A DNA stretch of 14,548 bases. Source: a virus. Its lineage: Duplodnaviria > Heunggongvirae > Uroviricota > Caudoviricetes. The DNA lies in the IMG/VR virus record IMGVR_UViG_2529293142_000010; one strand, given 5' to 3'. The position numbers and the translations under genes are program-made. Each line of letters starts with the position of its first letter. Positions within the stretch are counted from its first letter, which is position 1. Shown here in pieces: positions 1 to 2,974 of this stretch. The notes beneath the pieces were generated by a model. It saw only the letters and a list, made by a program, of their open reading frames with translations, searched no databases and was not told where the DNA came from.

Positions 1-209
1 TCTGTCTTGGAAAGAAAAATTACGTGTTCTTCGGTAGCGATCACGGCGGCGAGCGTGGTGCACTGCTGTACGGGCTGATCGGCACCTGCCGTCTGAACGG
101 TATCGATCCGGAAGCGTATCTGCGCCATATTCTGAGCGTACTGCCGGAATGGCCCTCCAACCGTGTTGACGAACTCCTGCCATGGAACGTAGTTCTCACC
201 AATAAATAA
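1..209 (+). CDS. IS66-family transposase, C-terminal fragment (5' end lies outside the window)
   Basis: Frame is open from the window edge to TAA at 207-209. The translation ...KKNYVFFGSDHGGERGALLYGLIGTCRLNGIDPEAYLRHILSVLPEWPSNRVDELLPWNV matches the conserved C-terminal motif of IS66-family transposases as I remember it. Confidence 0.8.
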   Translation, partial: CLGKKNYVFFGSDHGGERGALLYGLIGTCRLNGIDPEAYLRHILSVLPEWPSNRVDELLPWNVVLTNK

Positions 210-238
210 GCGTCAATACGGTGCTCCGTTGACGCTTA
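207..238. repeat. Perfect 10-bp inverted repeat (TAAGCGTCAA / TTGACGCTTA) with a 12-nt spacer at the IS terminus
   Basis: Read directly from the sequence: 207-216 and 229-238 are exact reverse complements. The left arm overlaps the transposase stop codon. Confidence 0.7.
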
Positions 239-239
239 C

Positions 240-335
240 AGGCAAGGCGACGCGGATCTGGTTCTTTGTTGTTTCCCGCTCGGACTTGAATGTTTCGGCA
301 AGGTCACCGCTACGAGTCTGGTCTGATATGGCCAT
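240..335 (-). pseudogene. 5' remnant of a gene interrupted by the IS66-family element (first 32 codons MAISDQTRSGDLAETFKSERETTKNQIRVALP)
   Basis: ATG at 335-333 is preceded by AGGAG (rc of 344-348) with an 8-nt spacer. The frame runs into the IS-derived sequence and stops at 215-213 after 8 further codons. Confidence 0.45.
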
Positions 336-350
336 TTGATAAACTCCTGA

Positions 351-376
351 AAACAAAAACCCGCCAAGTGGCGGGT
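351..376 (-). terminator. Rho-independent terminator closing the minus-strand cassette
   Basis: GC-rich hairpin CCCGCC-AAGT-GGCGGG at 360-375, followed on the minus strand by TTTTTGTTT (rc of 351-359). It lies about 20 nt downstream of the stop of the small ORF at 397 and is asymmetric, with no T-run on the plus-strand side. Confidence 0.75.
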
Positions 377-396
377 CTACAGGAACAACTCTAAGT

Positions 397-567
397 TTAT
401 TTTTTCTGTTTAAAATTGTCCAACTCAGGTTCTTTAACGCTTTCTGTCATGTAATCCAATCCATCAAAAGGTACTTCAAGCATTATACTGCTTTCATAAT
501 CAGCCATGGATTGCTCTGCTTGCGTTGGCTTACTTTGCTGTGAGTTGTCATTATTTGATGTTGTCAT
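397..567 (-). CDS. Small acidic hypothetical protein, 56 aa (MTTSNNDNSQQSKPTQAEQSMADYESSIMLEVPFDGLDYMTESVKEPELDNFKQKK); below the ORF-track length cutoff
   Basis: ATG at 567-565 lies 3 nt after the stop of the upstream membrane-protein gene (571-573); stop TAA at 399-397, just before the terminator. Same strand and same AT-rich composition as its neighbour. Hand translation gives 11 D/E, 5 K and no R. Confidence 0.5.
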   Translation of the reverse strand: MTTSNNDNSQQSKPTQAEQSMADYESSIMLEVPFDGLDYMTESVKEPELDNFKQKK

Positions 568-570
568 CAA

Positions 571-1125
571 CTATGCCTTATTTATCAAAAGAAAAGTAAC
601 CGATAATATGAAAAAACCGAAAGATAACGCAATTCCTTCAAAAAGATAACGAGCATAAACTGCCTTTTCTTTATGAAGACTTTCGATCAATTCAACAGCT
701 TTACCATACTGAAACATATGGTATCTAAGCGTTTTAATTTTATCACCGTAAAGTAAAAAATCATGCTCTTCTTTTCGCTTATGAATAGGCATTTTTGGTA
801 TATCTTTCAGTCCCCAAGTACGCCATAGGAAAAAAAAGCACATAACAATACAAACAAAGCATAGATATGCACAAAGTATAGATAATGTTAAAAACCAATT
901 ACTCTTTAGCCCACTTTTGAAATCAACAGTCCCAAATACAGCCAGTAGAGCAGAGGTTTCTACAGCTAAAATAGCAAGAAGGTAGTTAACTTTGTCCTCA
1001 AGACGACGATATGTTGATTTTGCTTCCTCATATCTATCTTTATAATATGACGAAATAAAATCAGCGCCTATAGTCTCAATTGCCTTTTGTTCTTCTGTTG
1101 TATCTATTGGCGAACACTTGCTCAT
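571..1125 (-). CDS. Hypothetical inner-membrane protein, 184 aa, three predicted TM helices with a charged N-terminal region of about 45 aa and a basic loop of about 60 aa
   Basis: ORF track. Hydrophobic stretches are LLAILAVETSALLAVFGTV, FLTLSILCAYLCFVCIVMCFFFLW and GIALSFGFFILSVTFLLI. Very AT-rich, roughly one third G+C by eye against over half in the structural genes. ATG at 1125 lies 7 nt after the stop of the upstream gene. Confidence 0.75.
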   Translation of the reverse strand: MSKCSPIDTTEEQKAIETIGADFISSYYKDRYEEAKSTYRRLEDKVNYLLAILAVETSALLAVFGTVDFKSGLKSNWFLTLSILCAYLCFVCIVMCFFFLWRTWGLKDIPKMPIHKRKEEHDFLLYGDKIKTLRYHMFQYGKAVELIESLHKEKAVYARYLFEGIALSFGFFILSVTFLLINKA

Positions 1126-1132
1126 TTCTTAA

Positions 1133-1480
1133 TCAACCAACAACTTTCTTACACGGGAAAGAGCCAATAATTTTCGGAGCATCCATGCTGTTCTGCAACA
1201 ACTGGACGTTCAGGAAACGCGTTTTAGTGCCCGGTCGATGGATATACTCGAACCCATAATTGTTGCCATCTTTGGCAGGCATCAACTCCATTTTGATCTG
1301 CATGCCTGTACCGTCTTTACCCAACATTTTTACTTTTTGGGATGTTACTGTTTCGCCATTGATTTTAAATAATGAGTCAGGGATCGCATCCATACGAAAG
1401 TTGCCGCATTGCATCGTTATGGTGTTTGCACTTACACCAACAGACACTAACGCCAGCAATGAAAATATCCATCGTTTCAT
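1133..1480 (-). CDS. Hypothetical secreted/periplasmic protein, 115 aa, with an N-terminal signal peptide (MKRWIFSLLALVSVGVSA|NT) and two Cys in the mature part
   Basis: The ORF-track frame 1133..1561 begins at an upstream alternative start; the first ATG with a Shine-Dalgarno (GAGAGGA upstream) is at 1480-1478, and the protein from there opens with a classic positive-hydrophobic-AXA signal peptide. There is no lipobox, so it is not called a lipoprotein. The start is 2 nt after the stop of the frameshifted tail gene. Confidence 0.7.
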   Translation of the reverse strand: MKRWIFSLLALVSVGVSANTITMQCGNFRMDAIPDSLFKINGETVTSQKVKMLGKDGTGMQIKMELMPAKDGNNYGFEYIHRPGTKTRFLNVQLLQNSMDAPKIIGSFPCKKVVG

Positions 1481-1978: not shown

Positions 1979-2547
1979 GCCAAAGAGTACCGCCCCCGGG
2001 GGAATACAGTAGCAGGCATTTCAGGCGTCAGGCCTTCGGTCGCGCCTTTGGCTTCGAAGTCTTTCATCAGCGCACGGTTTACATCAGCGACCGTGTAACC
2101 GGCAGCCAGCGTCTGTGAGGTTATACTGGTGGCAAAAGCCAGATCAGTATCTGCTGCCTGAATCAGGACGTAGGAATCAACCGGACTGTCTTTTCCTGTA
2201 ACCGAGTAGCGAATTTCACCGCTGAAAATCAGTCCGTAGTTGCGACCATCACTCTGGCCCACGTCCGCCGCGTCAACTTCCCGCACTGTCCCGACGTCGC
2301 TTGCCGACACCTCCGGCGCGATACCGTCGTAACCCGCAATCAGACGCACTTTCGAAAACTCCTGCCCGGTAATTCGGTTCACAGTATCTGCCGAGAGGTT
2401 ATAAATTTTGATAGTCCCTACCCGGGACGCGCTGCTGATGTTGAACCAGTCGATCGTAAAGGTGACTTTGAAATCACTTAGCTCAATTCCCTGACCGTTC
2501 CCGTCCACAAGCTGCAGCTCGAAATGTCTCATCCAGTTCTGTGACAT
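1975..2547 (-). CDS. Phage tail component, 190 aa (function not recognised)
   Basis: ORF track; ATG start; 2-nt gap after the upstream gene stop; typical codon usage; sits in the post-tape-measure tail gene chain. Confidence 0.7.
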   Translation of the reverse strand: MSQNWMRHFELQLVDGNGQGIELSDFKVTFTIDWFNISSASRVGTIKIYNLSADTVNRITGQEFSKVRLIAGYDGIAPEVSASDVGTVREVDAADVGQSDGRNYGLIFSGEIRYSVTGKDSPVDSYVLIQAADTDLAFATSITSQTLAAGYTVADVNRALMKDFEAKGATEGLTPEMPATVFPRGRYSLA

Positions 2548-2549
2548 GC

Positions 2550-2852
2550 TTACTCCGTTGATACCAGTAAATGGCTGCGACCGCCCAGGTCAGTTTTTGT
2601 GGGGTAATCCTGTGTGTTGTCATCACAGACCACCACCAGCTTAAAACCAAGCCCCATACAGGCGTACTGCGCCAGCAGGTCAGCACCAGTGACGAGAGGA
2701 ATACCGGAGATTACCGGCTCCCCTCTGTCGCTCTGCAGGTCCATAATCCAGTACAGATCGCGCCATATGATGCTAATCCACCAGGTGACACCACCCAGGA
2801 CGATGCTGAACTGCTGGTTGTCCGCTGTCAGCGGAATTTCCTGAATTGTCAT
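2550..2852 (-). CDS. Phage tail component, 100 aa (function not recognised)
   Basis: ORF track; its ATG overlaps the stop of the upstream 41-aa ORF (ATGA). Confidence 0.65.
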   Translation of the reverse strand: MTIQEIPLTADNQQFSIVLGGVTWWISIIWRDLYWIMDLQSDRGEPVISGIPLVTGADLLAQYACMGLGFKLVVVCDDNTQDYPTKTDLGGRSHLLVSTE

Positions 2853-2974
2853 TTGCCGCCCCCCAGTAATGACGCCACGTTACCCGTGATGCTTTTCAGC
2901 AGTGAAGTATCTGGAGGTTTTGTGGTTTTGTTGCCGCTGTTCTGTACCGCCGACGTGCTGGCCCCTTCCTTCAT
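2849..2974 (-). CDS. Small hypothetical protein, 41 aa (MKEGASTSAVQNSGNKTTKPPDTSLLKSITGNVASLLGGGK); not in the ORF track
   Basis: Its ATG (2974-2972) overlaps the TGA of the upstream ORF and its TGA (2851-2849) overlaps the ATG of the downstream ORF, both as ATGA. Codon usage looks ordinary. Confidence 0.4.
   Translation of the reverse strand: MKEGASTSAVQNSGNKTTKPPDTSLLKSITGNVASLLGGGK

What the first reader, a model, noticed from the sequence alone, without database searches (positions are those of the whole stretch)
397..567. Unlisted 56-aa acidic ORF wedged between the membrane-protein gene and the terminator
Absent from the ORF track (under 60 aa) but well placed: it starts 3 nt after the upstream stop and ends about 20 nt before the terminator hairpin, on the same strand and with the same AT-rich composition. 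The protein is strongly acidic with no Arg. Small acidic proteins next to membrane effectors can be regulators, antitoxin-like partners or DNA mimics.
Basis: seen in the sequence. Interest (0 to 1): 0.45.

Follow-up and report, generated by a model that had tools for sequence, protein, structure and literature searches.

The report
Small acidic partner of prophage membrane protein
The 56-codon reading frame is a real, conserved gene that always follows one family of prophage membrane proteins distantly resembling a pore-forming anti-phage effector; it is most likely that protein's small cytoplasmic regulatory partner, but its function has not been tested.

Summary
Window 397-567 (minus strand) is a 56-aa ORF (pI 4.2, no Arg). 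It starts 3 nt after the stop of a 184-aa three-helix membrane protein gene (571-1125) and ends 18 nt before a terminator hairpin (357-378).

It is a genuine gene. RefSeq annotates it as hypothetical protein WP_000213604.1, and PHROGs holds it as phrog_18231. In every locus examined, each homologue of the membrane protein (27-99% identity) is followed by a 46-64 aa acidic ORF starting -4 to +13 nt from its stop. I recovered 15 distinct small-protein sequences. Fourteen share the core Y-E-x-x-I-M-x-x-V-P-F-G-x-L-x-x-x-T-E-S. On unsaturated pairs dN/dS is 0.10-0.21.

The pair also occurs in an unrelated tail-gene context, so it moves as a unit. Here it is AT-rich cargo (31-34% GC against about 54%) in a variable slot between the baseplate hub and spike genes of a SEN34-like myovirus prophage. 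The terminator belongs to the phage backbone, not to the cassette.

The membrane protein gives weak but repeated matches to PycTM, the Pycsar pore effector, and no cyclase is nearby. The small protein matches no known family.

Best reading (inferred, confidence about 0.4): a disordered acidic cytoplasmic partner that binds and restrains the membrane effector in a prophage defence or exclusion module.

The parts
397..567 (-). The small ORF: 56 aa, acidic (pI 4.2) and cytoplasmic, with no signal peptide or membrane segment. It has a hydrophilic acidic N-terminal tail (residues 1-23), a conserved core at residues 24-43 (YESSIMLEVPFDGLDYMTES), and a short C-tail ending in basic residues (KQKK).
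   Evidence: Searches give the sequence. Searches show the PGAP annotation. One search gives phrog_18231. Searches give the 15 syntenic homologues, the core motif and dN/dS of 0.10-0.21. One search gives the three-segment charge and hydropathy pattern.
576..579 (-). A Shine-Dalgarno-like AAGG, 8 nt upstream of the small ORF's ATG. It is embedded in the last codons (Lys-Ala) of the membrane-protein gene, which suggests translational coupling.
   Evidence: TAAGG or GGAGG lies 5-12 nt before the ATG in 13 of the 15 loci inspected.
571..1125 (-). The 184-aa integral membrane protein partner. It has an N-terminal cytoplasmic helix with the invariant motif RYEEAKxxYRRLEDKxN and three long helices each carrying a membrane span. 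Glu56 in span 1 is invariant, and the cytoplasmic loop (104-160) is basic. It is weakly PycTM-like.
   Evidence: One search gives the ORF. Searches give the family alignment and invariant columns. One search gives the AlphaFold2 model (pLDDT 79, helices 21-66, 77-104 and 129-183). Searches give the PADLOC PycTM models (10 of 18 members, best E 1.6e-5). One search gives the loop charge of +1 to +6 in 12 of 13 homologues. One search gives phrog_18554.
347..378 (-). An intrinsic-terminator hairpin (AGACCCGCC-ACTT-GGCGGGTTT followed by a T-tract), immediately before the spike gene's ribosome-binding site. It is a backbone element of this phage group, not specific to the cassette.
   Evidence: One search detects it. 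One search shows it after the small ORF in all loci. Searches show the same hairpin upstream of the spike gene in three relatives that carry different cargo.
1133..1480 (-). The neighbouring 115-aa protein with a signal peptide (STY1065/STY2022 family). It lies between the hub gene and the cassette and is found more widely than the pair, so it is not an obligate part of the module.
   Evidence: One search gives the ORF. One search gives the PGAP name. Searches show it present in genomes that lack the pair. One search gives phrog_3443.
239..335 (-). The 5' remnant (about 32 codons) of the baseplate spike gene, cut off by an IS66-family element that occupies window 1-238.
   Evidence: homology to intact prophages starts at query position 40, which is window 239. 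Searches show the intact 753-nt spike gene in relatives. One search shows window 200-239 matching annotated transposase or mobile-element ends.

Best explanation
Window 397-567 (minus strand) encodes a real 56-aa cytoplasmic protein that is the dedicated partner of the 184-aa membrane protein encoded just upstream. The two genes form a mobile, translationally coupled module carried as AT-rich cargo in the hub-spike slot of a SEN34-like myovirus prophage.

Proposed mechanism. The membrane protein is a small oligomerising, membrane-permeabilising effector of the PycTM kind. The small protein is largely disordered. Its conserved 20-residue amphipathic core (Y-E-x-x-I-M-x-x-V-P-F-G-x-L-x-x-x-T-E-S) folds onto the effector's basic cytoplasmic face, and its acidic tail adds electrostatic affinity. 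This holds the effector closed. When the small protein is lost, titrated or degraded, for example during superinfection, the effector would be released and the membrane depolarised, which would exclude or abort the incoming phage.

Shown here: the gene is real, it is conserved under purifying selection, it is coupled to and co-inherited with the membrane-protein gene, the pair moves as a unit, and the acidity and three-segment layout are conserved.

Inferred, not shown: physical binding, the inhibitory direction of the regulation, pore formation, and a role in defence or exclusion.
For: 1. Coding reality. An ORF of 46-64 aa follows every membrane-protein homologue examined, across 27-99% identity and 15 distinct small-protein sequences, and it is always acidic (pI 4.1-4.7). 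On pairs where dS is not saturated, dN/dS is 0.10-0.21 for the small ORF and 0.07-0.13 for the membrane protein. A Shine-Dalgarno-like TAAGG is conserved.

2. Partnership. The start lies -4 to +13 nt from the partner's stop in loci with an intact partner gene. Pairwise identities of the two proteins correlate at r = 0.91, and 0 of 5000 permutations reach that value. The pair also occurs in an unrelated tail-gene neighbourhood (L027). A 27%-identity homologue on a 183-kb metagenome contig still has an overlapping (ATGA) 46-aa acidic ORF.

3. Asymmetry of damage. The membrane gene is frameshifted in E. coli 2000-3039, truncated in L022 and carries indels in L046. The small ORF is intact in all three cases, and no locus shows the reverse.

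4. Effector nature. Three PADLOC PycTM models hit 10, 9 and 6 of the 18 family members (best E 1.6e-5), and no other family hits comparably. The most distant homologue aligns co-linearly over profile positions 17-160 of 165. PycTM is described as forming membrane-spanning pores (PMC11224242).

5. Charge complementarity. The cytoplasmic loop of the membrane protein carries +1 to +6 in 12 of 13 homologues, and the small protein carries -3 to -8.

6. Cargo status. GC is 0.31-0.34 against 0.53-0.56 in the flanks, and the slot holds different genes in related prophages.
Against: There is no experimental or structural evidence that the two proteins interact. The only joint model, an artificial fusion folded without an alignment, had low confidence (pLDDT 60, and 42-56 over the small-protein part).

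The PycTM similarity is weak. The window protein itself scores E 9e-4. The current Pfam-A gives no PF18967 match at E <= 10. Membrane proteins are prone to compositional matches.

No promoter scoring 9 of 12 or better lies upstream on the coding strand, and the cassette sits inside the late baseplate operon. It may therefore be expressed only during lytic growth, which suits a defence role in lysogens less well.

The correlation of identities may reflect nothing more than linkage.

The lesions in the membrane gene are few, and those in L046 may be sequencing errors.

The direction of regulation, inhibitor or activator, is not constrained by any result.
Confidence: 0.4

Rival explanations
1. 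The small protein is a positive factor rather than an inhibitor. It could be a sensor or adaptor that recognises a component of an invading phage, or a host cue, and then switches the membrane protein on, much as RexA activates RexB. Alternatively it could be an assembly or insertion cofactor needed for the membrane protein to function.
For: The same coupling, co-inheritance and joint mobility fit this reading equally well. The rapidly diverging N- and C-terminal segments (alignment) could be recognition surfaces caught in an arms race.
Against: A 20-residue conserved core flanked by disordered tails is small for a specific sensor. In three loci the membrane gene is damaged while the small gene stays intact. 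That pattern is expected if the membrane protein is the harmful component and the small one is harmless or protective, but it is weak evidence.
Confidence: 0.2
2. The pair serves the phage's own lytic cycle or self-immunity and is expressed late with the baseplate operon. One possibility is a membrane protein that modulates lysis timing, DNA entry or exit, or exclusion of sister phages. The small protein would then protect the resident phage from its own effector, as Esc does for SieB in P22 or an antiholin does for a holin.
For: The cassette lies inside the late operon. Gaps to the genes on its upstream side are only 3-7 nt, and no convincing promoter of its own was found. The only terminator is the backbone one shared by all relatives.
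Against: The pair is optional cargo. It is absent from most related prophages and from all 50,697 phage records. It has foreign base composition and occurs in a different gene neighbourhood in L027. It is not next to lysis genes. There is no Pfam match to holin or SieB families.
Confidence: 0.2
3. The small protein acts independently of the membrane protein, as an anti-defence factor or DNA mimic (Ocr- or ArdA-like) or as some other host-takeover peptide. On this view its adjacency to the membrane gene is incidental.
For: It is small and acidic, it is phage-borne, and it has no homologue of known function.
Against: It was never found without the membrane partner, including when the search started from the small protein itself. 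The acidic residues are not conserved in position, whereas a hydrophobic core is. Net charge is only -3 to -8 over about 56 residues. The start is translationally coupled to the partner's stop in every lineage.
Confidence: 0.05
4. The ORF is not a separate gene. It is either a chance open frame in AT-rich DNA or a C-terminal extension of the membrane protein made by stop-codon readthrough, since the two are in frame in this window.
For: In this window the TAG stop of the membrane gene is followed in frame by TTG-ATG and the whole small ORF.
Against: The frame relationship is not conserved. Offsets of -4, +1, +2, +3 and +13 nt occur among homologues, yet each has its own ATG and a Shine-Dalgarno-like site. 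The frame stays open with dN/dS well below 1 at saturating divergence. No Rfam family accounts for the region.
Confidence: 0.03

Closest known systems
PycTM, the transmembrane effector of the Pycsar anti-phage system
   Same: It is a membrane protein of about 160-185 aa with an N-terminal helix followed by membrane spans. The family here gives repeated weak matches to three PADLOC PycTM models, co-linear over nearly the whole profile. PycTM is described as killing the infected cell by forming membrane pores (PMC11224242).
   Different: No PycC cyclase, or any other nucleotide-signal generator, lies beside it in any locus; the neighbours are phage tail genes. The conserved partner is a 56-aa acidic protein instead. 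The similarity is below any curated threshold, and the current Pfam-A gives no PycTM match.
Lambda RexA/RexB and P22 SieB/Esc (prophage two-component exclusion or abortive-infection pairs; from general knowledge)
   Same: Each is a prophage-encoded pair in which a small inner-membrane protein is the effector and a soluble partner controls it. RexA activates the RexB channel, and Esc neutralises SieB for the resident phage.
   Different: No sequence similarity was detected. RexA is a 279-aa folded sensor, and Esc is an in-frame internal product of sieB. Here the partner is a separate, mostly disordered 56-aa protein encoded downstream. The location also differs: the immunity region in those phages, the baseplate operon here.
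Morons in phage tail-gene clusters, such as HK97 gp15 (a superinfection-exclusion membrane protein) and the lambdoid cor, lom and bor genes (from general knowledge)
   Same: These are optional cargo of foreign base composition inserted between conserved tail genes and followed by a terminator. They encode envelope proteins that benefit the lysogen.
   Different: No promoter of its own was detected, and the terminator belongs to the backbone. This is a two-gene module with a cytoplasmic partner rather than a single membrane or lipoprotein gene. No homology was detected.
Type II toxin-antitoxin pairs with a membrane-acting toxin and a disordered protein antitoxin
   Same: Two small, co-transcribed, translationally coupled genes. 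One product is potentially harmful and the other is small, acidic and largely disordered with a short conserved binding segment. Inactivating lesions are seen only in the putative toxin gene.
   Different: The small protein has no DNA-binding domain. Gene order is toxin first. Neither toxicity nor neutralisation has been tested. Neither protein matches a known toxin-antitoxin family in Pfam, NCBIfam or PADLOC.

Membership tests
Pycsar (pyrimidine cyclase anti-phage system) | An adjacent PycC pyrimidine cyclase gene that makes the activating cCMP or cUMP | tested here: not met
   In all loci the neighbours are phage hub, spike and other tail genes or small unknown proteins. No cyclase domain appears in any gene table.
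Pycsar (pyrimidine cyclase anti-phage system) | An effector that matches the PycTM family profile | tested here: inconclusive
   PADLOC PycTM models hit 10, 9 and 6 of 18 members, with a best E of 1.6e-5; the window protein scores 9e-4. Precomputed PF18967 flags appear on 4 relatives, but the current Pfam-A gives no match at E <= 10.
Pycsar (pyrimidine cyclase anti-phage system) | The effector is activated by a cyclic nucleotide and permeabilises the membrane | not testable with these tools
   This needs biochemistry or physiology. No cNMP-binding domain was detected in the 184-aa protein.
Type II toxin-antitoxin system | Two adjacent, co-oriented, tightly spaced small genes inherited together | tested here: met
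   Spacing is -4 to +13 nt in loci with an intact partner gene. The identity correlation is r = 0.91. The pair moved together into a different context.
Type II toxin-antitoxin system | The antitoxin carries a DNA-binding domain and autoregulates the operon | tested here: not met
   No Pfam, NCBIfam, PADLOC or PDB match was found for any of 12 small-protein sequences. No upstream promoter or operator was identified.
Type II toxin-antitoxin system | The toxin is toxic on its own and is neutralised by direct binding of the antitoxin | not testable with these tools
   There are only indirect hints: lesions confined to the membrane gene and opposite charges. The fusion model was uninformative.
Phage moron | Optional insert between conserved phage genes, with base composition unlike its flanks | tested here: met
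   GC is 0.31-0.34 against 0.53-0.56. The slot holds other genes in FDAARGOS_1289, strain P4 and phage SEN34. Only 29 of 5426 complete E. coli genomes carry a version.
Phage moron | Its own promoter and terminator, allowing expression from the repressed prophage | tested here: inconclusive
   The terminator is present but belongs to the backbone. Only weak (8 of 12) sigma-70-like matches lie upstream. No expression data were found.
DNA-mimic or anti-restriction proteins (Ocr/ArdA-like) | A folded protein displaying a conserved array of acidic side chains, acting independently of neighbouring genes | tested here: not met
   The conserved positions are hydrophobic or Gly/Pro (Y24, V32, P33, G, and E42 and S43), and the acidic tail varies in sequence. 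The gene was never found without the membrane partner.

The most novel reading that the evidence does not exclude
An orphan PycTM-like pore effector that is gated by a dedicated, intrinsically disordered 56-aa acidic protein rather than by a cyclic nucleotide. This would be a minimal two-gene, protein-controlled abortive-infection or superinfection-exclusion module. It travels as cargo in prophage tail-gene slots across Enterobacterales, with more distant versions outside phages (L042).
Probability: 0.25. Interest if true: 0.6.

Novelty: new variant of a known kind. Interest (0 to 1): 0.42.

Why it matters
If the pair works as proposed, it would show that a Pycsar-type membrane effector can be cut loose from nucleotide signalling and placed under the control of a tiny protein partner. 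That would add a compact, easily transferable module to the list of prophage-borne exclusion and defence systems.

It also illustrates two practical points. Sub-60-aa genes that gene callers and ORF tracks drop can be obligate partners of larger genes; the gene table for two Salmonella loci omits the small ORF, and in E. coli IAI1 PGAP annotates neither gene. The hub-spike junction of SEN34-like prophages is a cargo slot worth mining.

The module occurs in pathogenic E. coli lineages (O55:H7, O103:H2, O45:H2, ETEC H10407) and on hundreds of contigs, with sources that name Salmonella enterica, so it may affect phage susceptibility in those strains.

As it stands, this is an uncharacterised but ordinary-looking accessory gene pair.

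Tried and rejected
- The word-seeded search with the 56-aa protein found only clusters at 98% identity or above.
- The exhaustive phmmer search of 1.84 billion representatives found only the protein itself plus two long proteins (E 4e-6 and 8e-4) that I take to be low-complexity matches. Homologues were reachable only through synteny with the membrane gene.
- The profile-based scan of GTDB genome contigs for the membrane protein confirmed nothing.
- tblastn of the membrane protein against 50,697 phage records found no match.
- A profile search with the membrane-protein alignment added only two new relatives.
- PDB sequence searches with both profiles found nothing meaningful.
A hand-made fusion was accepted but gave a low-confidence single-sequence model, which I do not use as evidence.
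- The weak Pfam '8xMP' hits led nowhere in the literature.
- Searching papers for the RefSeq accessions found nothing.
- Stop-codon readthrough was rejected because the frame offset varies among homologues.
- A non-coding RNA explanation was rejected because there is no Rfam match above noise.
- The idea that the terminator defines the cassette was rejected, because the hairpin is present whatever the cargo.

Full report
**What is in the window**

On the minus strand, an ORF runs from the ATG at 567-565 to the TAA at 399-397. It encodes 56 aa: MTTSNNDNSQQSKPTQAEQSMADYESSIMLEVPFDGLDYMTESVKEPELDNFKQKK.
- The protein has 11 D+E, 5 K and no Arg, with a pI of 4.21.
- It starts 3 nt after the TAG stop (573-571) of a 184-aa ORF at 571-1125.
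- It ends 18 nt before the only terminator-like hairpin on that strand, whose stem is at 378-357 and is followed by a T-tract.
- GC content is 0.31-0.39 across 301-1050, against 0.53-0.56 in the phage genes to the right.

The ORF was 'unlisted' only because of the 60-aa cut-off.

**Genomic setting**

The window is the tail and baseplate region of a myovirus prophage of the SEN34 type, all on the minus strand. The genes present include tape measure/lytic transglycosylase, Dit-like protein, plug, hub, spike, sheath initiator, baseplate J and wedge.

In intact relatives the gene order is: hub, a 115-aa signal-peptide protein (STY1065/STY2022 family), the 184-aa protein, the 56-aa protein, the hairpin, then the spike gene. 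In this window an IS66-family element (1-238) has cut the spike gene off after about 32 codons, so homology to intact prophages begins at window 239.

Distribution in complete E. coli genomes:
- 21 of 5426 carry this cassette at 98.4% identity or above.
- These include O55:H7 CB9615, O103:H2 12009, O45:H2 and ETEC H10407.
- Eight more, including IAI1, carry a version about 65% identical.

PGAP annotates the small ORF as hypothetical protein WP_000213604.1 or WP_000213605.1. PHROGs holds it as phrog_18231, of unknown function (E 6e-44).

**The hub-spike junction is a variable cargo slot**

Related prophages carry other genes at this position:
- E. coli FDAARGOS_1289 has a 121-aa gene on the opposite strand.
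- Strain P4 has a 121-aa gene on the same strand.
- Phage SEN34 has 77-aa and 138-aa genes.

The hairpin AACCCGCC-NNNN-GGCGGGTTTTTT, followed by GGAG and the spike start codon, is present in all of them. The terminator therefore belongs to the phage backbone and not to this cassette.

No sigma-70-like promoter matching 9 of 12 positions or better lies upstream on the coding strand. Only 8-of-12 matches are found. Gaps between hub, the 115-aa gene and the 184-aa gene are 3-7 nt. Independent expression in lysogens is therefore not established.

**Is the small ORF a gene?**

Sequence searches with the 56-aa protein alone found only near-identical copies. I therefore searched through its neighbour.

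The 184-aa protein has relatives at 27-60% identity on contigs from public assemblies and metagenomes. Where a source names an organism, it is Salmonella enterica, Klebsiella aerogenes or Serratia nematodiphila. In every locus examined, an ORF of 46-64 aa follows. Its start lies -4 to +13 nt from the partner's stop wherever the partner gene is intact.

This gave 15 distinct small proteins, all acidic (pI 4.1-4.7). Fourteen of them share a 20-residue core: [YF]-E-x-x-[IV]-[MI]-x-x-[VS]-P-[FL]-G-x-[LV]-x-x-x-T-E-S. The core lies between two variable segments:
- a hydrophilic acidic N-terminal tail of 19-35 aa, with net charge -2 to -9;
- a short C-tail that usually ends in Lys or Arg.

Further support for a translated gene:
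- Synonymous sites are saturated for most pairs. Where they are not, dN/dS is 0.10-0.21 for the small ORF and 0.07-0.13 for the membrane protein.
- A Shine-Dalgarno-like TAAGG or GGAGG lies 5-12 nt before the ATG in 13 of the 15 loci inspected.
- In this window the two ORFs are in frame, but the offset varies among homologues (-4, +1, +2, +3, +13 nt). Readthrough fusion is therefore excluded.
- Rfam offers no RNA explanation for the region.

The ORF is a real protein-coding gene. I put confidence in that at about 0.95.

**The two genes form a unit**

Pairwise identities of the small proteins and of their membrane partners correlate at r = 0.91, and 0 of 5000 permutations reach that value. This shows at least that the two genes are not shuffled relative to each other.

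In L027 the pair, followed by a hairpin of its own, sits in a different tail-gene neighbourhood with Mu-type chaperone and DNA circulation genes. The most distant homologue (27% identity, L042, on a 183-kb metagenome contig) is followed by an overlapping (ATGA) 46-aa acidic, poly-Gln ORF. That ORF lacks the VPFG core.

The 115-aa secreted protein is not part of the unit. It occurs without the pair, and other genes replace it upstream of the pair in L008, L026 and L027.

Damage is asymmetric. The membrane gene is frameshifted in E. coli 2000-3039, truncated in L022 and carries several 1-nt deletions in L046 (these may be sequencing errors). The small ORF is intact in all three. No locus shows the reverse pattern.

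**The membrane partner**

An AlphaFold2 model built on an 18-sequence alignment (pLDDT 79) gives three long helices at 21-66, 77-104 and 129-183, each containing a hydrophobic span.

Invariant residues include the N-terminal RY-E-xxxY-RLEDK-N motif, Glu56 inside span 1, Cys89, a P-x-M-P motif after span 2, and H151 and K154. The loop at 104-160 carries a net charge of +1 to +6 in 12 of 13 homologues. This implies that the N-terminus and this loop face the cytoplasm, where the small protein would be, since it has no signal peptide.

Homology evidence:
- The only recurring family signal is PycTM, the Pycsar membrane effector. Three PADLOC models hit 10, 9 and 6 of 18 members, with a best E of 1.6e-5. 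The window protein itself scores 9e-4.
- The L042 homologue aligns over profile positions 17-160 of 165.
- Four relatives carry precomputed PF18967 flags, but the current Pfam-A shows nothing at E <= 10.

PycTM is described as forming membrane-spanning pores when activated by cCMP or cUMP from the adjacent PycC cyclase (PMC11224242). No cyclase is present in any locus here. The family is therefore at most a remote, orphan relative and not a Pycsar system.

**The small protein**

It has no match in Pfam, NCBIfam, PADLOC or the PDB, either as a single sequence or for 12 homologues.

Its layout is a disordered acidic tail, a 20-residue core with hydrophobic residues spaced as on one face of a helix (M21, Y24, I28, V32), then P-F-G-x-L, and a basic end. 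This is typical of a peptide that folds on binding a partner. That reading is an inference. The only joint model I could obtain, a single-sequence fusion, had low confidence and I do not use it.

**Most likely mechanism**

The mechanism is inferred, with confidence of about 0.4. The small protein is made in step with the membrane protein by translational coupling. Its core binds the effector's basic cytoplasmic face and holds the PycTM-like effector inactive. Loss, titration or degradation of the small protein would release the effector and compromise the membrane. That would give superinfection exclusion or abortive infection.

The rivals are:
- It acts as an activator or sensor, in the manner of RexA (0.2).
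- It has a late-expressed role in the phage's own life cycle or self-immunity, like Esc or an antiholin (0.2).
- It is an independent anti-defence factor or DNA mimic (0.05). This is disfavoured because the gene is never found alone and its acidic residues are not the conserved ones.
- It is not a separate gene (0.03). The comparative data contradict this.

**Novelty and verdict**

The ORF itself is already annotated as hypothetical. What is new is the recognition that it is an obligate, conserved partner of a PycTM-like membrane protein, and that the pair is mobile cargo in a prophage baseplate slot.

I found no paper on either protein, and neither the small protein nor the pairing matches a described defence or toxin-antitoxin family.

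I rate it as a new variant of a known kind: a prophage membrane effector with a small regulatory partner. It is of moderate interest and worth a simple toxicity/rescue and phage-challenge experiment.

Noticed in passing
window 1-238 (+) and 239-335 (-): An IS66-family element end (transposase C-terminus at 24-209) has inserted into the baseplate spike gene, leaving only about 32 codons of it. This prophage copy is therefore defective, yet the cargo cassette is intact.
   Followed up: partly
window 347-378 (-); L029 about 1905-1935, L030 about 2065-2095, L031 about 1650-1680: A strong intrinsic-terminator hairpin sits in the middle of the late baseplate operon, directly in front of the spike gene's ribosome-binding site, in all relatives whatever their cargo. 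How downstream baseplate and fibre genes are transcribed past it (antitermination, partial readthrough or a downstream promoter) is not explained.
   Followed up: partly
L034 (E. coli IAI1, NC_011741.1) 2231-2937 (-): An intact 176-aa + 57-aa version of the pair lies in a 774-nt stretch where RefSeq/PGAP annotates no gene at all. The gene table returned for L005 and L006 (Salmonella) also lacks the small ORF, although the sequence there is intact.
   Followed up: yes
L032 (E. coli 2000-3039, NZ_CP101302.1) 834-1389: The membrane-protein gene is split by a 1-nt insertion into 73-aa and 115-aa pieces while the small ORF is intact. The 115-aa fragment forms a cluster of 15 member sequences on 5 contigs (P0011), so the lesion is not unique to one assembly.
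   Followed up: partly
window 1133-1480 (-): A 115-aa protein with a cleavable-looking signal peptide (MKRWIFSLLALVSVGVSA|N), of the STY1065/STY2022 family and phrog_3443. Its gene starts 3 nt after the hub gene and is conserved much more widely than the pair. A secreted protein encoded inside a baseplate operon is unexplained.
   Followed up: no
L042 2492-3120 (metagenome contig Ga0222677_1000009, 183 kb): The most distant membrane-protein homologue (27% identity, 163 aa) sits outside any recognisable phage tail cluster, next to a repeat-rich (YKNGK...) lipoprotein gene. It is followed by an overlapping 46-aa acidic ORF with an 11-residue Gln run and no VPFG core.
   Followed up: partly
window 568-573 (-): In this lineage only, the small ORF is in frame with the membrane-protein gene, separated by TAG-TTG. 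TAG readthrough would therefore give a 241-aa fusion. The arrangement is not conserved in other lineages, so it is probably coincidental.
   Followed up: yes
S. Typhi CT18 genes STY2020 and STY2021 (literature only): Two S. Typhi-specific 'putative bacteriophage' genes used as diagnostic PCR markers (PMC5126401). By their numbering they lie next to STY2022, which gives its name to the family of the 115-aa protein here. They may be that prophage's cargo in the same slot. The adjacency was not verified.
   Followed up: no
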